From IMG/VR virus record IMGVR_UViG_3300013903_000020: a stretch of 5,816 nucleotides of DNA; one strand, given 5' to 3'. Below are positions 1-5,816 of the stretch, piece by piece (positions within the stretch are counted from its first letter, which is position 1; each line of letters opens with the position of its first letter). The position numbers and the translations under genes are program-made. A model generated the notes under the pieces. That model saw nothing but the letters and a program-made list of their open reading frames with translations, had not been told where the DNA came from and did not search any database. The stretch comes from a virus. Its lineage: Duplodnaviria; Heunggongvirae; Uroviricota; Caudoviricetes.

Positions 1-180
1 CGAACCTTCCGTGAGAAATATTCCGAGTCTCCCATTTCAGCTACTGACTGGTACTATAGATTTAGCCGCGATGATGGTAAATGTTGTAATGACCTTGAAT
101 TTTTCAGTTGCACTTGCCTGAAATGCGATCGAGCAGGTGAGTGCGAGGCCCCCCAAGAGCATGGTTACTTTTTTTATTGA
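1..180 (+). CDS. 3'-terminal fragment of an unidentified gene entering from upstream of the window (Cys-rich C-terminus ...CCNDLEFFSCTCLKCDRAGECE...)
   Basis: Frame 1 is open from base 1 to a TGA at 178-180 (59 codons) with protein-like composition and several Cys pairs. There is no in-frame start inside the window, so it is absent from the ORF track. Identity unknown. Confidence 0.3.
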   Translation, partial: RTFREKYSESPISATDWYYRFSRDDGKCCNDLEFFSCTCLKCDRAGECEAPQEHGYFFY

Positions 181-260
181 GCGCATAATTTAGTACCTAT
201 AGTGAGCAAAATTAGAACAAACATAGCAACGGCTATGTTTTATAGCATAACCTATACAAA

Positions 261-544
261 ATGAAAATGATTATCATTAACAACTTTGAGGCCCAAAACA
301 GGGATTAGTTTGTTTCCTGCTGGATGAAAGGACTCTTGGGATAGCACATGCCGCACGAAGAGCAGCATTACATGATGTTTTGTCGAATGAGCTACGAATC
401 CTGATAGAAATACGAAACAAGCTAGCACATGGACAATGGATCTATCCCTTCAATAATGAAGGAAATACTGTGGACCCTGATAAATTTAAATTAATCGATA
501 AAGAAAACTTGCAGTCACTTCAATTCAAATATTCATTAGCATAG
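261..544 (+). pseudogene. Disrupted small ORF with a HEPN-like R-x4-H motif (possible abortive-infection or toxin remnant)
   Basis: ATG at 261 opens a 15-codon frame-3 ORF (MKMIIINNFEAQNRD) ending at TAG 306-308. Frame 2 is open from 290 to TAG 542-544 and encodes ...ELRILIEIRNKLAHGQWIY..., with RNKLAH at 413-430. A single-base change in the A-run near 295-298 would fuse both parts into one ORF of about 97 aa. No Shine-Dalgarno sequence upstream of 261. Confidence 0.3.
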
Positions 545-813
545 CATTTAGCTGATGCTGTACATGATTTGGTTGTAAGTCCTACGACATTCGAACGAGA
601 TTTCGAAAGCCATTTTAAAAATTCTTTTACGTCCGCTCCTCGCTCATAACAGGCATTCACTACATTTGTCTTCATTGGCTATGCAAGTCGTAATACAAGG
701 TGGGGCAAAACTGAGACACATAAGGTCTCTCACAAAGGTCTGCAAGGCCTCACATGTATTGAGATGTTAATAAAATGTAGACTTGTAATTTTGATATAAA
801 TGGTAGATAAAAC

Positions 814-826
814 CTTTCCCCAAAAT
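814..826 (+). promoter_or_regulatory. Isolated copy of the TTCCCCAAAA motif; candidate integrase arm-type site on the far (P-arm) side of the icd segment
   Basis: CTTTCCCCAAAAT at 814-826 matches the three tandem repeats at 1175-1211 and lies about 120 bp upstream of where icd homology starts. Confidence 0.3.
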
Positions 827-911
827 AAAAACGAACGTCAATGAAATCAAACGGTTGAATAAAGTTGATTTTGGCTAATAAAAAAACAATAAAATAATTT
901 TTATCATTAAA

Positions 912-924
912 TATCAATTACTTG
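912..924 (+). promoter_or_regulatory. IHF-consensus-like site (WATCAANNNNTTR) next to the putative attachment core
   Basis: TATCAATTACTTG at 912-924 fits the IHF consensus at every specified position, in an AT-rich context about 20 bp upstream of the icd-homologous segment. Confidence 0.3.
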
Positions 925-943
925 AACTTAATGTTTTTATATA

Positions 944-1108
944 CTGCTGCGCCATATGGGCTGGACTGAAGCCGCAGACCTGATTGTTAAAGGTATGGAA
1001 GGCGCAATCAACGCGAAGACCGTAACCTATGACTTCGAACGTCTGATGGAAGGCGCTAAACTGCTGAAATGTTCAGAGTTTGGTGATGCGATCATCAAGA
1101 ATATGTAA
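944..1108 (+). pseudogene. icd: icd 3'-terminal segment (last about 54 codons of isocitrate dehydrogenase), phage-associated attachment-site copy, not a full gene
   Basis: Translation [54 protein letters not shown] matches the Icd C-terminus as I recall it. The frame is closed by TAA at 929-931 and upstream sequence is AT-rich non-icd DNA, so only the 165-bp tail is present. Confidence 0.85.
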
Positions 1109-1131
1109 TCACTACATGTGTTAAATATTGA

Positions 1132-1160
1132 AACGGGCGTATAACACGCCCGTTGTTTTA
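1132..1160 (+). terminator. Rho-independent terminator downstream of the icd segment
   Basis: Stem AACGGGCG (1132-1139), loop TATAACA, stem CGCCCGTT (1147-1154), then GTTTTAT. Sits 24 bp after the icd stop codon. Confidence 0.7.
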
Positions 1161-1174
1161 TGATGATGTAAAAT

Positions 1175-1211
1175 CTTCCCCAAAACTTTCCCCAAAACCC
1201 TTCCCCAAAAC
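1175..1211 (+). repeat. Three tandem direct repeats (C)TTCCCCAAAAC; candidate integrase arm-type binding sites (P'-arm analogue)
   Basis: CTTCCCCAAAAC (1175-1186), TTTCCCCAAAAC (1187-1198) and CCTTCCCCAAAAC (1199-1211) are head-to-tail, ending 11 bp before the int stop codon at 1222-1224. A fourth copy lies at 814-826. Confidence 0.6.
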
Positions 1212-1221
1212 TGGCTATTTT

Positions 1222-2364
1222 CTATGCTGTTTTGATATCTACGATAATCCAGTCTTTACCACGATCATCATTGTATCGGTCGGTCATTTTTCTGGATTTA
1301 TGGCCTAACAACTTTTGCGTATCCAGACCCTGTTCCCGATATAACCGTTCTGACAGAGATCGCTGCTCATGAAATGTGGGCGCAGTTCCTTGCTCCCATT
1401 TTATGCCACATTTTTCCCTGGCCTTTTTAAAAGCCGTTGTCAGAGTATTCGCAGAAACCTGGTCTCCTCTGTTTGCTTGAGAGGTTGTGTGACGGTAATG
1501 GACCAGATATTTACTAACAACAGCATCCCTGCACTGAGATATAACTTCACGAAGGGTAATATTCAGAGCATCGCATTTCAGGTTAAGCGGAATAGCAAGT
1601 TTTGAACCGGTTTTTTCCTGAGTAATGTGCAACATGTCGTCCCAGATATCAGAGAATTTCAAATTGCAGATATCGCCTAAACGTTGTCCAGTGACAAGAG
1701 CAAGTAGCATCCCGCATTTTAAATAGGGCTGCCGTCTGCTTACGCTGTCAAATATTGCCTGCCATTCGGGCAGTGATAATCTTTGGCGGTTTACTCGATT
1801 TCGCGGTTGTTTTGTTGCCTGCGCTGGGTTAAATCCTGGCGGAACATGTCCTGCGTGTTGTGCTTCTTTGAAGACGTCGATTAACACCATTCTCACGACT
1901 TGCGCCATCCTGTTATGACCTTCAGCCTTTACAGCATCAATTATTTCGGCAATATCAAGTGCGGTAATATCCTTGAGGTGTTGCATTCCACAATGCTCAC
2001 GGAAAAGACGAATGGGTTTGCCTTTTTGCCGATAGGAGTTGGGTCTTAGTTCATTATGTTGCAGCCTGTCCTCCTGGATAGAAATATATTTATCAAGCCA
2101 TTCTGTCACCGTAATGTCTGAGCGCCTGCCTTTCATTCTTTCCAGACGCTCATTGACGCTTAATATTTGTCGGGTACGTTGTTCAGCAATAATGGTATTT
2201 GCTTCAGTAGCAACTTGTTTTGCTTCATTCTCATCAGTTCCTAAGCTATGAAAACGACCGGATAGTGGATGTTTGTATTGCCAATATACCTTTCCGGTTC
2301 GCTTATCTAATTTGCAATATAAATTGGGTATAGAGATTTTGTGAGATCGGGGTCTAGCAGCCAT
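1222..2364 (-). CDS. int: Tyrosine-family site-specific integrase (e14 IntE / phage-21 Int-like, icd-targeting)
   Basis: 380-aa ORF with tyrosine-recombinase hallmarks: TGQR, H-E-Q-R (HxxR), and GHKS...TDRY with the catalytic Tyr near the C-terminus. It lies beside the att-like icd segment and overlaps the upstream xis by 11 nt. Confidence 0.95.
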   Translation of the reverse strand: MAARPRSHKISIPNLYCKLDKRTGKVYWQYKHPLSGRFHSLGTDENEAKQVATEANTIIAEQRTRQILSVNERLERMKGRRSDITVTEWLDKYISIQEDRLQHNELRPNSYRQKGKPIRLFREHCGMQHLKDITALDIAEIIDAVKAEGHNRMAQVVRMVLIDVFKEAQHAGHVPPGFNPAQATKQPRNRVNRQRLSLPEWQAIFDSVSRRQPYLKCGMLLALVTGQRLGDICNLKFSDIWDDMLHITQEKTGSKLAIPLNLKCDALNITLREVISQCRDAVVSKYLVHYRHTTSQANRGDQVSANTLTTAFKKAREKCGIKWEQGTAPTFHEQRSLSERLYREQGLDTQKLLGHKSRKMTDRYNDDRGKDWIIVDIKTA

Positions 2365-2590
2365 CAGCGATTATCCGTTGGAGTTTTGGGTTTGCGTTTA
2401 TTGGGAGTTGCGGTTCTGCAAGCGTTCCTACAAAACGGGAATTTCGGTCAATCATCCAGTAGCGACCAACTTTTATAGCTGGTGGGGCCATCATTTTCCC
2501 TTGCGCGTATTTTTTCAGAACTCGCTCACTTGGTGCTAAGTCCCCAAATTCTTCTTTAGCCCAGTCCTGTAAAGTGATTAGTCGAGACAT
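2354..2590 (-). CDS. xis: Excisionase / recombination directionality factor (XisE-like)
   Basis: 78-aa ORF immediately upstream of int with an 11-nt overlap and a strong SD (GAGGAGG, 4 nt before the ATG). Small basic protein in the canonical xis position. Confidence 0.8.
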   Translation of the reverse strand: MSRLITLQDWAKEEFGDLAPSERVLKKYAQGKMMAPPAIKVGRYWMIDRNSRFVGTLAEPQLPINANPKLQRIIADGC

Positions 2591-2729
2591 TTGTCCTCCT
2601 CTTAGCTGCTGAGGGAGTTTGTGACCGATATATCTGACATGATATTAAGCTCATGGCAGGTACATCTCATGACTGGTCATAGAGATAAATTTAATGCTGA
2701 GAAATGCAGTATTGAATTTATCAATTTTT

Positions 2730-2969
2730 CTATTTCCTGCGTATGGCACGTAACTTCTTAATGTGTTCTGCCGTTTCGATCTCTTCTGCTATCCGATCTG
2801 CATCAGCTTTATTCACAGGTTCAAAGTCATGATTAAAGCGGAACATGCTGGCGATACATGTTCTGCCTTTTCGGATGTAGTGAACTTTGTTATGGGTAGA
2901 ACGCAGGATTTTGCAGGGAGTGCCGTGGTGGTCGACGTACCAGGTGTTAGGGTAAATCACTCTGAACAT
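2730..2969 (-). CDS. Hypothetical small protein (79 aa) of the early-left operon
   Basis: ATG-initiated ORF on the same strand as int/xis, overlapping the stop of the upstream gene by 23 nt. Protein-like composition but no motif I recognise; SD is weak. Confidence 0.45.
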   Translation of the reverse strand: MFRVIYPNTWYVDHHGTPCKILRSTHNKVHYIRKGRTCIASMFRFNHDFEPVNKADADRIAEEIETAEHIKKLRAIRRK

Positions 2970-3279
2970 TCTTGACCTTGTGTTGTGCGGATTGATATTC
3001 AGTGGTGATATTCACCTTTATAGCGAACACCTTTACCGGTTTATCGCCAAAGTGCGGATGTGTGATTGTCTTCACTTCATATCCGTCATACGGAACATCA
3101 ATTCTGCGACTGGAATCGTCGCGCTTCGGATATCCCTTTGTGATAATCAGGCGGTCATATTCCCGGAACATAATTCGCTTATTCCAGTAGTCATTACACA
3201 AGCGATACTCTTCCGTTTTCTCTCCGCGAATCATGGCATCGAAGTATTCACTTTTAACAGCAAGTTGCAGGTTAGCCAT
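2947..3279 (-). CDS. ASCH-domain-like protein (GxKxxExR motif)
   Basis: The ORF is open to 3345, but the Met at 3277-3279 gives MANLQ... and its ATG overlaps the TGA of the upstream TraR-like gene (TGATG). IRGEKTEEYR carries the ASCH signature G-x-K-x-x-E-x-R. Confidence 0.6.
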   Translation of the reverse strand: MANLQLAVKSEYFDAMIRGEKTEEYRLCNDYWNKRIMFREYDRLIITKGYPKRDDSSRRIDVPYDGYEVKTITHPHFGDKPVKVFAIKVNITTEYQSAQHKVKNVQSDLP

Positions 3280-3500
3280 CACTTCATCCCCCTTTGTTTG
3301 CGGATAAGCTCCAGATCTTGCTGGCAACTGGCGCAAGTCCGACAACCCTGAACGGCCAGTCGTCTTCGTTCATCTATCGGATCGCCACACTCACAACAAT
3401 GAGTGGCAGATACAGCCAGGTAGTTCAGGCGGCGCATTTTTATTGCTGTGTTGCGCTGTAATTCTTCTATTTCTGATGCTGAATCAATGATGTCTGCCAT
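3279..3500 (-). CDS. TraR/DksA-family C4 zinc-finger protein
   Basis: 73-aa ORF with two CxxC pairs (C-C-E-C ... C-R-T-C) spaced as in the DksA/TraR zinc finger. Typical small early gene of lambdoid prophages. Confidence 0.85.
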   Translation of the reverse strand: MADIIDSASEIEELQRNTAIKMRRLNYLAVSATHCCECGDPIDERRRLAVQGCRTCASCQQDLELIRKQRGMK

Positions 3501-3552
3501 CTTTCATTAATCCCTGAACTGTTGGTTAATACGCTTGAGGGTGAATGCGAAC

Positions 3553-3576
3553 AATAAAAAAGGAGCCTGTAGCTCC
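3553..3576 (-). terminator. Putative rho-independent terminator for leftward transcription
   Basis: On the minus strand: GGAGC-tacag-GCTCC hairpin (plus 3562-3576) followed by TTTTTTAT (plus 3554-3561), 22 nt downstream of the stop at 3599. Stem is only 5 bp. Confidence 0.4.
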
Positions 3577-3598
3577 CTGATGATTTTGCTTTTCATGT

Positions 3599-3880
3599 TC
3601 ACCGTTCCTTAAAGACGCCGTTTAACATGCCGATCGCTAGGCTTAAATGAGTCGGTGTGAATCCCATCAGCGTTACTGTTTCGCGGTGCTTCTTCAGTAC
3701 GCTACGGCAAATGTCATCGACGTTTTTATCCGGAAACTGCTGTCTGGCTTTTTTGATTTCAGAATTAGCCTGACGGGCAATGCTGCGAAGGGCGTTTTCT
3801 TGCTGAGGTGTCACTGAACAAGCCCCATGTCGGCAAGCATAAGCACACAGAATATGAAGCCCGCTGCCAGAAAAATGCAT
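3599..3880 (-). CDS. Small hypothetical early-left protein (93 aa from ATG 3880; 71 aa if started at GTG 3814)
   Basis: ORF in the track. The first 22 residues (MHFSGSGLHILCAYACRHGACS) look non-native and the ATG lacks an SD. A GTG at 3812-3814 overlaps the TGA of a 27-codon upstream ORF (GTGA) and gives VTPQQENALRSIARQ... Confidence 0.5.
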   Translation of the reverse strand: MHFSGSGLHILCAYACRHGACSVTPQQENALRSIARQANSEIKKARQQFPDKNVDDICRSVLKKHRETVTLMGFTPTHLSLAIGMLNGVFKER

Positions 3881-3894
3881 TCAGTGGTTGTCAT
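3811..3894 (-). CDS. Candidate 27-aa hydrophobic peptide (MTTTECIFLAAGFIFCVLMLADMGLVQ), translationally coupled between two small genes
   Basis: ATG at 3892-3894 overlaps the TGA of the 63-aa gene (ATGA) and its own TGA overlaps the GTG at 3814 (GTGA). One predicted hydrophobic helix. Below the ORF-track length threshold; may be spurious. Confidence 0.2.
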   Translation of the reverse strand: MTTTECIFLAAGFIFCVLMLADMGLVQ

Positions 3895-4082
3895 ACCTGG
3901 TCTCTCTCATCTGCTTCTGCTTTCGCCACCATCATTTCCAGCTTTTGTGAAAGGGATGTGGCTAACGTATGAAATTCTTCGTCTGTTTCTACTGGTATTG
4001 GCACAAACCTGACTCCAATTTGAGCAAGGCTATGTGCCATCTCAATACTCGTTCTTAACTCAACAGGAGATGCTTTGTGCAT
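3891..4082 (-). CDS. Small hypothetical protein (63 aa), first gene of the leftward small-gene cluster
   Basis: ATG at 4080-4082 preceded by a strong SD (GGGAGG, 4 nt spacing). Acidic C-terminus and no obvious helix-turn-helix. Confidence 0.6.
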   Translation of the reverse strand: MHKASPVELRTSIEMAHSLAQIGVRFVPIPVETDEEFHTLATSLSQKLEMMVAKAEADERDQV

Positions 4083-4196
4083 ACCGCCTCCCGTTTATTA
4101 TTTATCTTCTCAGCCAGCCGCTGTGCTTTCAGTGGATTTCTGATAACAGAAAGGCCGGGAAATACCCAGCCTCGCTTTGTAACGGAGTGGACGAAA

Positions 4197-4619
4197 GTGA
4201 TCGCGCCTAATCAGGATGTCGTTGCCGCACTCATTGTGAATGAGTATCGAGCACAGGGCGGCGTCACCATCGATTTTCCTGATGATGTCAGTCGGGCACG
4301 CCAGAAGCTGTTCCGCTTCCTCGATAACAAATTCGATTCTGAAAAATACCGAAATAACGTGCGTGAACTGACCCCGGCAATTCTGGCGGTACTACCGCTG
4401 GAATATCGCGGCCACCTGGTTGAGCAGGATAGCTTCATGGCTAGGTTGGCTGAAATGGAAAAGGAACTCAGTGAGGCAAAACAGGCTGTCATTCTCAACG
4501 CACCACGCCACCAGAAATTGAAGGAAATTAGTGAAGGTATTGTGTCGATGTTTCGTGTGGACCCGGATCTGGCTGGTCCATTGATGGCGATGGTTACTAC
4601 CATGCTGGGGGCGATATGA
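4197..4619 (+). CDS. Early regulatory protein in the cII slot (possibly CII/YdaT-like), immediately upstream of the replication initiator
   Basis: The ORF is open from GTG 4077, but that start overlaps the divergent 63-aa gene and the first 40 residues look non-native. GTG 4197 has GGAG 9 nt upstream and gives 140 aa with a coiled-coil-like segment (MARLAEMEKELSEAKQ). Family not verifiable by eye. Confidence 0.5.
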   Translation: MIAPNQDVVAALIVNEYRAQGGVTIDFPDDVSRARQKLFRFLDNKFDSEKYRNNVRELTPAILAVLPLEYRGHLVEQDSFMARLAEMEKELSEAKQAVILNAPRHQKLKEISEGIVSMFRVDPDLAGPLMAMVTTMLGAI

Positions 4620-4705
4620 CAGGTTCAGAAATGGCGAAAGCCGGTCTGCTGGAACAGAACCGACTTTCAGGTGCAAATCGTAACACACTCATTGCGGGAG
4701 GAATT

Positions 4706-5635
4706 ATGGCAAACACTGCTGAGATATTCAATTTTCCAGTGCCGGATGCGGCACAAAAGGAGCCGCGCGTGGCAGATCTCGATGATGGTTATACGCGCAT
4801 TGCAAATGAGTTGCTGGAAGCTGTGATGCTGGCCGGATTAACACAGCACCAGCTTCTGGTCTTTCTGGCTGTCATGCGCAAAACATATGGCTTTAATAAA
4901 AAACTGGATTGGGTTAGCAACGAGCAACTTTCCGAATTAACCGGGATATTGCCGCACAAGTGTTCTGCTGCAAAAAGTGTTCTGGTAAAGCGTGGGATTT
5001 TTATTCAGAGCGGGCGGAATACCGGCATTAATAATGTGGTCAGTGAATGGTCAACATTACCCGAATCAGGTAAGAAAAATAAAGTTTACCTGAAAGAGGT
5101 AAATTTACCTGAATCAGGTAAAAAAAGTTTACCCAAATCAGGTAAAGGCGTTTACCCGAATCAGGTAAACACAAAAGACAAACTAACAAAAGACAATATA
5201 AAACCTTTTTCGTCCGAGAATTCTGGCGAATCCTCTGACCAACCAGAAAACGATCTTCCTGTGGTGAAACCGGATGCTGCAATTCAGAGCGGCAGCAAGT
5301 GGGGGACAGCAGAAGACCTGACCGCCGCAGAGTGGATGTTTGACATGGTGAAGACCATCGCGCCATCAGCCAGAAAACCGAATTTTGCAGGGTGGGCTAA
5401 CGATATCCGCCTGATGCGTGAACGTGACGGACGTAACCACCGCGACATGTGCGTGCTGTTCCGCTGGGCATGCCAGGACAACTTCTGGTCCGGTAACGTG
5501 CTAAGTCCGGCCAAACTCCGCGACAAGTGGACCCAACTCGAAATCAACCGTAACAAGCAACAGGCAGGCATGATAGCCAGAAAACCAAAACTCGACCTGA
5601 CAAACACTGACTGGATTTGCGGGGTGGATTTATGA
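4706..5635 (+). CDS. O: Lambda O-like replication initiator
   Basis: From ATG 4706 (SD GGGAGG at 4696-4701) the N-terminus MANTAEIFNF...VADLDDGYTRIANELLEA...MRKTYGFNK...SEQLSELTG matches the lambda O N-terminal DNA-binding domain as I recall it. An iteron array sits in the central linker. The ORF-track start at 4616 is probably a spurious extension. Confidence 0.9.
   Translation: MANTAEIFNFPVPDAAQKEPRVADLDDGYTRIANELLEAVMLAGLTQHQLLVFLAVMRKTYGFNKKLDWVSNEQLSELTGILPHKCSAAKSVLVKRGIFIQSGRNTGINNVVSEWSTLPESGKKNKVYLKEVNLPESGKKSLPKSGKGVYPNQVNTKDKLTKDNIKPFSSENSGESSDQPENDLPVVKPDAAIQSGSKWGTAEDLTAAEWMFDMVKTIAPSARKPNFAGWANDIRLMRERDGRNHRDMCVLFRWACQDNFWSGNVLSPAKLRDKWTQLEINRNKQQAGMIARKPKLDLTNTDWICGVDL
5057..5210 (+). 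repeat. Origin of replication: five 19-bp iterons (TTTACCyGAATCAGGTAAA, each an internal TTTACC/GGTAAA inverted repeat) followed by an A+T-rich segment
   Basis: Iterons at about 5057-5073, 5085-5103, 5104-5122, 5128-5146 and 5151-5169, then an AT-rich tract at 5170-5210. They lie inside the O-like gene linker, as in ori-lambda. Confidence 0.75.
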
Positions 5636-5816
5636 AAAACATCGCCGCACAGATGGTTAACTTTGACCGTGAGCAGATGCGTCGGATCGCCAACAACATG
5701 CCGGAACAGTACGACGAAAAGCCGCAGGTACAGCAGGTAGCGCAGATCATCAACGGTGTGTTCAGCCAGTTACTGGCAACTTTCCCGGCCGGGCTGGCTA
5801 ACTGCGACCCGAGTGA
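5632..5816 (+). CDS. P: Lambda P-like replication protein (helicase loader), 5' partial, continues beyond the window
   Basis: ATG at 5632 overlaps the O stop (ATGA) with GGGGTGGA upstream. MKNIAAQMVNFDREQMRRIANNMPEQYDEKPQVQQVAQIINGVFSQLLATFPAGLAN closely matches the lambda P N-terminus from memory. Confidence 0.9.
   Translation, partial: MKNIAAQMVNFDREQMRRIANNMPEQYDEKPQVQQVAQIINGVFSQLLATFPAGLANCDPS

What the first reader, a model, noticed from the sequence alone, without database searches (positions are those of the whole stretch)
2947..3500. TraR/DksA-type zinc-finger gene translationally coupled to an ASCH-type gene
The TraR-like stop overlaps the ASCH-like start (TGATG), implying co-expression. 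TraR/DksA-family proteins bind the RNA polymerase secondary channel, and ASCH domains are predicted RNA-binding modules, so the pair may jointly reprogram host transcription or RNA metabolism on induction. The pairing is established only by adjacency here.
Basis: partly seen in the sequence, partly recalled or inferred. Interest (0 to 1): 0.4.

Follow-up and report, generated by a model that had tools for sequence, protein, structure and literature searches.

The report
Phage Orf73/TraR gene beside ASCH gene
Two small accessory genes of a phage-21-like prophage, a well-studied RNA-polymerase regulator (lambda Orf73/TraR) and a divergent ASCH-fold protein, do sit end to end with overlapping stop and start codons, but this pairing is one lineage's mosaic arrangement, not a conserved two-gene system.

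Summary
On the minus strand, a 73-aa TraR/DksA zinc-finger gene (3279-3500) ends in TGA, and that stop shares one base with the ATG of a 110-aa gene (2947-3279). A GGGGG Shine-Dalgarno lies 7 nt upstream of the ATG.

The first protein is the phage 21 orthologue of lambda Orf73 (90% identical). Lambda Orf73 has been shown experimentally to bind RNA polymerase and shut off rRNA and ribosomal-protein promoters.

The proposed partnership is not supported:
- In 5,426 E. coli genomes about 623 adjacent pairs exist, against 4,688 TraR and 1,851 ASCH gene copies, and about 90% of genomes carrying the pair match at 99% identity or more.
- Only 4 of 446 matching phage records hold both genes contiguously.
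- Homology with lambda stops exactly after the TraR stop codon; in lambda, ea22 follows with the same kind of overlap.
- ASCH homologues overlap at least seven unrelated upstream genes.

This copy has also lost pL and the immunity region. The finding is ordinary and largely already known.

The parts
3279..3500 (-). TraR/DksA-family gene, orthologue of lambda orf73 (73 aa; stop TGA at 3281-3279)
   Evidence: ORF. Pfam PF01258 E=6.5e-9. PHROG 54 'DksA-like zinc-finger' E=2.6e-25. 98.6% identical to phage 21 and 90% to lambda Orf73. DxxDxA motif at D3/D6/A8, C35xxC38-17-C56xxC59 plus extra C36 and C53 as in lambda Orf73, and E44RRRL48 (direct reading, against PMC9239242 and PMC8614690).
2947..3279 (-). 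Divergent ASCH-fold gene (110 aa, PHROG 625); start ATG at 3279-3277
3277..3281 (-). TGATG stop/start overlap; also the mosaic boundary
   Evidence: Sequence. E. coli matches to one gene only end or begin at query 329/330, which is window 3278/3279. Alignment with lambda loses homology right after TGA.
3288..3292 (-). Shine-Dalgarno (GGGGG) for the ASCH gene, inside the TraR 3' end
   Evidence: Sequence. The phage 21 record annotates an RBS at the same place.
2730..2969 (-). DUF4222 gene, next gene downstream; overlaps the ASCH 3' end by 23 nt
   Evidence: Pfam PF13973 E=6.4e-19. Travels with the 110-aa ASCH form in phage-21-type loci.
3560..3578 (-). Terminator-like hairpin plus T-run upstream of the TraR gene; corresponds to the predicted t2 terminator and p1 promoter of lambda/Phi24B
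   Evidence: Consensus scan. Sequence identical to lambda except one base, window 3552. Predicted t2/p1 are described in PMC4195576. Prediction only.
3599..4201 (-). Upstream genes of the same leftward operon: orf61-like (3599-3814), orf63/DUF1382 (3891-4082), orf60a/DUF1317 lacking its ATG (4055-4201)
   Evidence: Pfam and PGAP. Phage 21 and lambda annotation. Translation.
1222..2590 (-). Integrase (1222-2364) and excisionase (2354-2590), distal end of the same transcription unit
   Evidence: Pfam, PGAP.

Best explanation
The interval holds two neighbouring accessory genes of the exo-xis segment of the leftward early (pL) operon of a phage-21-like lambdoid prophage.

Gene 1 is the orthologue of lambda Orf73, a TraR-family protein. 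It inserts its N-terminal helix (DxxDxA) into the RNA polymerase secondary channel. Without ppGpp, it inhibits rRNA and ribosomal-protein promoters and so diverts host resources to the phage. This is shown for lambda Orf73 and inferred here from 90% identity and conservation of every hallmark residue.

Gene 2 is a minimal, divergent ASCH (PUA-like beta-barrel) protein of the 'GKER' motif type. Its most likely activity is binding a nucleotide or RNA in the motif-lined cavity. It may hydrolyse N4-acetylcytidine, free or in tRNA, as reported for other ASCH proteins. This is inference only.

The one-base stop/start overlap with an internal Shine-Dalgarno probably gives coupled or re-initiated translation. 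That reflects the tight packing typical of this operon and a recombination boundary between exchangeable gene modules, not a dedicated two-protein system.
For: Gene context: the order exo-orf60a-orf63-orf61-orf73-X-xis-int is the same as in phage 21 and lambda, and window 665-4209 is 97.35% identical to phage 21.

TraR: Pfam, PHROG and NCBIfam hits, 90% identity to lambda Orf73, hallmark residues present, and function shown for lambda Orf73 in PMC9239242.

Module exchange:
- About 623 adjacent pairs against 4,688 TraR and 1,851 ASCH places in E. coli.
- Break points fall exactly at 3278/3279.
- In lambda, orf73 overlaps ea22 (GTGA) in the same way.
- The upstream neighbour of ASCH homologues is DUF551 (30 loci), TraR (23, all phage-21-like), DUF4752, Lar-like, dATP/dGTP pyrophosphohydrolase, HNH and others. 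Nearly all overlap the ASCH start by 1 or 8 nt.
Confidence: 0.8

Rival explanations
1. One reading: TraR and ASCH form a functional two-gene module, translationally coupled so that both are made together to reprogram host transcription and RNA metabolism.
For: There is a one-base stop/start overlap with a Shine-Dalgarno inside the upstream gene. The pair is retained intact in about 619 E. coli genomes and in phage 21. Both genes are under purifying selection. Both plausibly act on the translation apparatus, through rRNA promoters and tRNA ac4C.
Against: The pair covers only 13% of TraR and 34% of ASCH copies, and 562 of 619 are >=99% identical, so it amounts to one evolutionary event. Only 4 of 446 phage records hold both genes contiguously. 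No TraR-like gene lies within the flank examined (about 4 kb where available) of ASCH in 12 other enterobacterial species, Ralstonia, Klebsiella, Sinorhizobium or Jersey-like phages. The same overlap geometry occurs with many unrelated partners.
Confidence: 0.07
2. The 110-aa protein is not an ASCH protein but another PUA-like (EVE/YTH-type) or unrelated small barrel, and the ASCH label is an annotation artefact.
Confidence: 0.1
3. In this particular element the two genes are silent passengers of a decaying prophage and have no current role.
For: The element has lost exo through the N-terminal part of the ydaT-like gene, including pL, N and the repressor region. In strain 19AR1724 it is a roughly 24-kb remnant without morphogenesis genes. 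A terminator-like hairpin precedes the TraR gene.
Against: The ORFs are intact and identical to those of genomes with complete relatives. A promoter just upstream of orf73 has been predicted and invoked to explain expression data in Phi24B.
Confidence: 0.3

Closest known systems
Bacteriophage lambda Orf73 (TraR homologue of the exo-xis region)
   Same: 73 aa and 90% identical. Same position after orf61 and the t2-like hairpin. Same DxxDxA motif, six cysteines and ExxRL. Its stop codon likewise overlaps the start of the next gene (PMC9239242).
   Different: Seven substitutions (Y27H, L28Q, V30I, A49V, Q61E, R67S, M72S relative to lambda). The downstream neighbour is an ASCH gene instead of ea22.
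Escherichia phage 21 genes CPT_21_38 / CPT_21_37 / CPT_21_36 (OL657228.1)
   Same: Same three genes in the same order with the same overlaps. 98.6% (TraR), 99.1% (ASCH) and 92% (DUF4222) identity.
   Different: Phage 21 is a complete phage with exo-bet-gam-kil-cIII-N upstream. The window's element has these deleted and joins orf60a to a truncated ydaT-like gene.
F-plasmid TraR
   Same: Same family, size and architecture. The NCBIfam TraR equivalog aligns over 1-69 of 73 residues.
   Different: Scores far below the equivalog cut-off (24 against 108 bits). Lambda Orf73 did not activate the host promoters tested, unlike TraR.
ASCH proteins YqfB (9kyf), E. faecalis 3iuw, PH0355 (2z0t), TthASCH, human EOLA1
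   Same: Predicted beta-barrel with helix alpha1 between beta1 and beta2. GxKxxExR motif with Gly19/Lys21/Glu24/Arg26, numbered as in EOLA1. 'GKER' subgroup.
   Different: Only 12-21% identity. Below the Pfam threshold. Smaller core (about 92 aa) plus a 17-aa C-terminal tail specific to the phage-21 form. No activity tested.
lambda orf73-ea22 and HK022 DUF551-ASCH gene junctions
   Same: Overlapping stop/start with the RBS in the upstream gene's last codons.
   Different: Different partners, which shows that each gene recombines independently.

Membership tests
TraR/DksA C4 zinc-finger family (Pfam PF01258) | Profile match above the gathering score | tested here: met
   36.1 bits against 24.9, E=6.5e-9, residues 34-64.
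TraR subfamily (lambda Orf73 / F TraR type) | CxxC-17-CxxC zinc finger | tested here: met
   C35-E-C-C38 ... C56-A-S-C59 with 17 residues between, plus extra C36 and C53 as in lambda Orf73 (sequence; definition).
TraR subfamily (lambda Orf73 / F TraR type) | N-terminal DxxDxA motif on a single helix, in a protein of about 73 aa (no coiled coil) | tested here: met
   D3-I-I-D6-S-A8 in a 73-aa protein.
TraR subfamily (lambda Orf73 / F TraR type) | Globular-domain arginines / ExxRK(L) motif that contact the rim helices and beta'Si3 | tested here: met
   E44-R45-R46-R47-L48, identical to lambda Orf73.
TraR subfamily (lambda Orf73 / F TraR type) | NCBIfam TIGR02419 subfamily cut-off | tested here: not met
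   55.1 bits against a cut-off of 59.7, although aligned end to end (3-64 to 1-64/64) at E=8.7e-15. A near miss.
TraR subfamily (lambda Orf73 / F TraR type) | Binds RNAP and inhibits rRNA and r-protein promoters without ppGpp | not testable with these tools
   Shown for lambda Orf73 (PMC9239242). Inferred here from 90% identity.
ASCH domain (Pfam PF04266) | Profile match above the gathering score | tested here: not met
   14.5 bits against 21.2, E=0.06, residues 6-28 only. Of 80 family members, 9 reach E<=0.01, best 0.001.
ASCH superfamily | GxKxxExR octapeptide at the alpha1-beta2 junction | tested here: met
   G19-E-K21-T-E-E24-Y-R26. These are invariant in 30 close homologues. Across 80 sequences down to 36% identity, K21 is invariant and G19/E24/R26 are >=90% conserved. 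Model helix 10-17 and strand 23-27. Motif definition in PMC6803910.
ASCH superfamily | PUA-like beta-barrel fold closest to solved ASCH structures | tested here: met
ASCH superfamily | ac4C amidohydrolase, RNA-binding or RNase activity | not testable with these tools
   Literature on other members only.
Conserved TraR-ASCH gene pair (the proposed module) | Adjacency conserved across independent, diverged lineages | tested here: not met
   About 623 pairs against 4,688 and 1,851 single-gene places in E. coli, with 562 records >=99% identical. Only 4 of 446 phage records hold both genes contiguously. Of 95 loci, 23 are phage-21-like with TraR upstream and the rest have other neighbours. No C4 TraR-like ORF near distant homologues.
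Translationally coupled gene pair | Stop/start overlap with an RBS inside the upstream ORF | tested here: met
   TGATG at 3277-3281 and GGGGG at 3288-3292.
Translationally coupled gene pair | Downstream translation depends on upstream translation | not testable with these tools
   Needs reporter fusions with a premature stop in the TraR gene.

The most novel reading that the evidence does not exclude
In phage-21-type modules the two proteins attack host translation capacity from two sides. Orf73 shuts off synthesis of rRNA and ribosomal proteins. The co-translated ASCH protein removes N4-acetylcytidine from host tRNA-Met, or scavenges free ac4C. On this reading the widespread phage ASCH family (PHROG 625, more than 1,000 clusters at 50% identity) would be a viral tRNA-demodification enzyme.
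Probability: 0.07. Interest if true: 0.55.

Novelty: already known. Interest (0 to 1): 0.15.

Why it matters
It matters little as a discovery. The TraR gene is the orthologue of a protein whose mechanism was published in 2022. The gene pair, including its ribosome-binding sites, is already annotated in the phage 21 genome, and RefSeq already names both products.

Two points are useful. First, the case shows cleanly that a stop/start overlap in a lambdoid early operon marks a module boundary and not a functional partnership: homology between phages breaks to the base at the shared A of TGATG. Second, the small phage ASCH family is large, is under purifying selection and has not been studied. 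Given recent claims that ASCH proteins erase ac4C from tRNA, it would be a reasonable candidate for a simple biochemical test.

Tried and rejected
- Pfam and NCBIfam on the ASCH protein gave sub-threshold or no hits.
- HMM profiles of 30 and of 80 family members against PDB sequences gave no significant ASCH hit; 3iuw reached only E=0.43.
- hhalign of the family against E. coli YqfB gave no signal.
- Pfam on longer 'fusion' relatives gave only one Ead/Ea22 N-terminus. The fusions look like read-through of the overlapped junction with ATG changed to GTG, so they were rejected as functional clues.
- PADLOC defence models: none for five proteins of the region.
- Rfam: no RNA family in the window.
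- The sigma-70 consensus scan found no promoter on the minus strand in 2500-4700.
- I considered a TTG start at 3345 for the ASCH gene, which would overlap TraR by 66 nt. It was rejected because every homologue starts at MANLQ.
- I looked for TraR-like C4 ORFs near distant ASCH homologues (Ralstonia RSA1, Klebsiella MK54, Sinorhizobium Phosso, Jerseyvirus, 12 GTDB species). None was found.
- A literature search for any ASCH+TraR+prophage link found nothing relevant.
- The origin of window 1-65 was searched in E. coli genomes and viral contigs with no match.

Full report
**1. What is at 2947-3500**

All features lie on the minus strand. The ORF list gives a 73-aa ORF at 3279-3500 and an ORF at 2947-3345 that starts mechanically at a TTG. 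An alignment of the second protein with 29 homologues shows that the family starts at MANLQLAV, which is the ATG at 3279-3277. PGAP and the annotators of phage 21 use the same start.

Window 3277-3281 reads CATCA, which is TGATG on the coding strand. The TGA stop of the first gene and the ATG of the second therefore share one base. A GGGGG Shine-Dalgarno at 3288-3292 lies 7 nt upstream of the ATG, inside the last codons of the first gene.

Both genes are under purifying selection, with NG86 dN/dS of about 0.05-0.3 against diverged homologues.

**2. Where it sits**

The neighbourhood on the minus strand, read in the direction of transcription, is:
- orf60a/DUF1317
- orf63/DUF1382
- an orf61-like gene
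- a terminator-like hairpin
- the TraR gene
- the ASCH gene
- DUF4222
- xis
- int

The 3' end of icd follows. This is the exo-xis segment of the leftward early operon of lambdoid phages. Window 665-4209 is colinear with Escherichia phage 21 at 97.35% identity. The phage 21 record annotates the same three genes (CPT_21_38, 37, 36) with the same overlaps and ribosome-binding sites. Lambda has orf61, orf73, ea22 and ea8.5 in the corresponding place.

**3. The TraR-like protein**

It matches Pfam PF01258 above threshold, PHROG 54 and TIGR02419. The TIGR02419 match runs end to end but falls just below cut-off.

It is 98.6% identical to the phage 21 protein and 90% identical to lambda Orf73. It keeps every hallmark listed for TraR and Orf73:
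- DxxDxA (D3, D6, A8)
- CxxC-17-CxxC (C35, C38, C56, C59)
- the two extra cysteines peculiar to Orf73 (C36, C53)
- ExxRL (E44-L48)

These definitions come from PMC9239242 and PMC8614690.

Lambda Orf73 has been shown to bind RNA polymerase, to inhibit rRNA and ribosomal-protein promoters in vitro and in vivo, to slow host growth, and to raise phage yield about four-fold (PMC9239242). The mechanism for the window protein is therefore inferred with high confidence from a characterised orthologue.

**4. The ASCH-like protein**

Sequence profiles are weak:
- Pfam PF04266 gives 14.5 bits against a cut-off of 21.2 and covers only residues 6-28.
- NCBIfam gives nothing.
- HMMs built from 30 or 80 family members find no ASCH chain in the PDB at a significant E-value.
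- Only 9 of 80 family members reach E<=0.01 for PF04266.

Three other lines still support a divergent ASCH.

(a) The ASCH-specific octapeptide GxKxxExR is present as G19-E-K21-T-E-E24-Y-R26. It is invariant in close homologues. Across sequences down to 36% identity, K21 stays invariant and G19, E24 and R26 are at least 90% conserved. The motif is defined in PMC6803910, where human EOLA1 happens to have the same numbering.

(b) An AlphaFold model built on the 80-sequence alignment is confident (pLDDT 90.8, pTM 0.78). It places the motif at the junction of helix 10-17 and strand 23-27, which is the alpha1-beta2 position described for ASCH.

The family is large, with 1,194 clusters at 50% identity at E<=1e-3. 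It corresponds to PHROG 625, 'unknown function'.

Function is untested. Other ASCH proteins are N4-acetylcytidine amidohydrolases (YqfB) or a single-strand RNase (ZmASCH). A 2026 preprint reports that all 19 ASCH proteins tested, including the Glu-containing 'GKER' type, remove ac4C from tRNA, with Lys and Glu of the motif essential. My working hypothesis is a nucleotide- or RNA-binding cavity with possible ac4C hydrolase activity. This is inference.

The last 17 residues are an extension found only in the phage-21 form. The DUF4222 gene starts within it.

**5. Is the pair a unit?**

It is not.

- E. coli genomes. In 5,426 complete genomes the TraR gene is found at 4,688 places, the ASCH gene at 1,851, and a query spanning both at 5,916 places. 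That implies about 623 adjacent pairs, in line with the 619 genomes that cover at least 80% of the joint query. The pair therefore accounts for 13% of TraR copies and 34% of ASCH copies. 562 records match at >=99% identity, so this is essentially one module that has spread, not repeated independent association.
- Phage collection. 446 records match one gene or the other, and only 4 hold both contiguously.
- ASCH loci from IMG/VR, GTDB and reference phages. Among 95 loci, the ORF immediately upstream is DUF551/EaA-C in 30, TraR in 23 (all phage-21-like) and DUF4752 in 12. An unnamed family accounts for another 12, Lar-like for 5, and dATP/dGTP pyrophosphohydrolase, HNH and various singletons for the rest.
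- Other species and distant phages. No locus from the other enterobacterial species, and none of the Ralstonia, Klebsiella, Sinorhizobium or Jerseyvirus homologues, has a TraR-like C4 ORF within the flank examined, about 4 kb where available.

The junction itself is a mosaic boundary. E. coli matches to only one of the genes end or begin at query 329/330, which is window 3278/3279. The alignment with lambda is nearly identical through the TraR gene and loses all similarity directly after TGA.

Lambda orf73 overlaps the GTG start of ea22 in the same manner. Almost all ASCH homologues overlap whatever gene precedes them by 1 or 8 nt. The overlap is therefore a property of the operon's packing and of how modules are exchanged. 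It is not a signature of a TraR-ASCH partnership. [quoted passage not shown]

**6. Expression in this copy**

In intact phages these genes are transcribed from pL, past a predicted terminator between orf61 and orf73. A promoter overlapping that terminator has been predicted and invoked for Phi24B (PMC4195576).

The hairpin is present here at 3560-3578. One base differs from lambda and phage 21 in the proposed -10 region, at window 3552.

Colinearity with phage 21 stops at window 4209. orf60a has lost its ATG, and it abuts a ydaT-like gene that lacks its N-terminus. Only 9 of 5,426 genomes share this junction. In strain 19AR1724 the element is a roughly 24-kb remnant with O, P, nin genes, Q, lysis genes, iss, a porin gene and sitABCD, but no head or tail genes. 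'Reprogramming on induction' is therefore doubtful for this copy. Whether the two genes are expressed at all needs data.

**7. Verdict**

The gene identities are right, strongly for TraR and at fold and motif level for ASCH.

Both genes and their arrangement are already present and annotated in public records, and the TraR orthologue's mechanism is published. Interest is low. The one open thread is the biochemical activity of the phage ASCH family.

Noticed in passing
window 4201-4210 (junction), with 4055-4201 (-) and 4209-4619 (+): Deletion junction. orf60a/DUF1317 has lost its ATG (its upstream codons read LGA-ITFVHS) and abuts a ydaT-like gene lacking its N-terminus. Colinearity with phage 21 ends at 4209. 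The exo, bet, gam, kil, cIII, N, repressor and cro region is absent. Only 9 of 5,426 complete E. coli genomes share this junction.
   Followed up: partly
window 66-1159 versus 945-5816: The window has an attP-like configuration: sitA side, then icd 3' fragment (956-1108), then int. In strain 19AR1724 the two halves lie about 21 kb apart, as icd-int...sitA-icd'. The overlap 945-1159 is the icd 3' repeat. No complete E. coli genome in the collection covers window 1-1300 in one piece. The source may be an excised circle, a tandem array or a permuted provirus contig.
   Followed up: partly
window 1-65: The first 65 bases match neither sitA, any complete E. coli genome, nor IMG/VR (a 32-mer was tested). 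This leaves sitA (37-186, minus strand) truncated after about 41 codons. Origin unexplained.
   Followed up: partly
L101 (E. coli 19AR1724, 2802500-2825000): The prophage remnant that carries the gene pair also carries the virulence-associated cargo iss, sitABCD and an ompC-like porin gene. It retains Q and lysis genes but has no morphogenesis genes.
   Followed up: no
window 3552 (minus strand, within 3545-3560): Single A-to-G difference from lambda and phage 21 in the T-tract of the t2-like terminator. This is also the -10 element (TTTTATTAT to TTTTATTGT) of the literature-predicted promoter p1 upstream of orf73.
   Followed up: no
loci L004, L025, L043, L048, L058, L094 (ORF ends just upstream of ASCH); proteins P0121, P0122: Unrelated upstream proteins all end in ...Q(E/G)VN(R/H)G. 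This shows that the last ~7 codons, which hold the ASCH ribosome-binding site, travel with the ASCH gene. Two database 'fusion' proteins read through this junction with the ASCH start changed from ATG to GTG (...NRRRRLTVANLQ).
   Followed up: partly
L097 3001-3291 and 3291-6095 (Ralstonia phage RSA1): A 53%-identical ASCH homologue in a P2-like phage lies directly upstream of the DNA primase gene and overlaps its start. This is a quite different context from the lambdoid exo-xis region.
   Followed up: no
window 3507-3602 (-): A 31-codon ORF lies between the orf61-like gene and the TraR gene and spans the terminator-like hairpin. The corresponding, slightly shorter ORF is annotated in phage 21 as a 'putative secreted protein', but PGAP does not annotate it. 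Its status is unclear.
   Followed up: no
window 2947-3003 (-), ASCH residues 93-110: A C-terminal extension of 17 residues is found only in the phage-21 form of the ASCH protein. The model predicts it as a helix with lower confidence (pLDDT 66-81). The DUF4222 gene overlaps the last 23 nt of the ASCH gene (2947-2969) within this extension.
   Followed up: no
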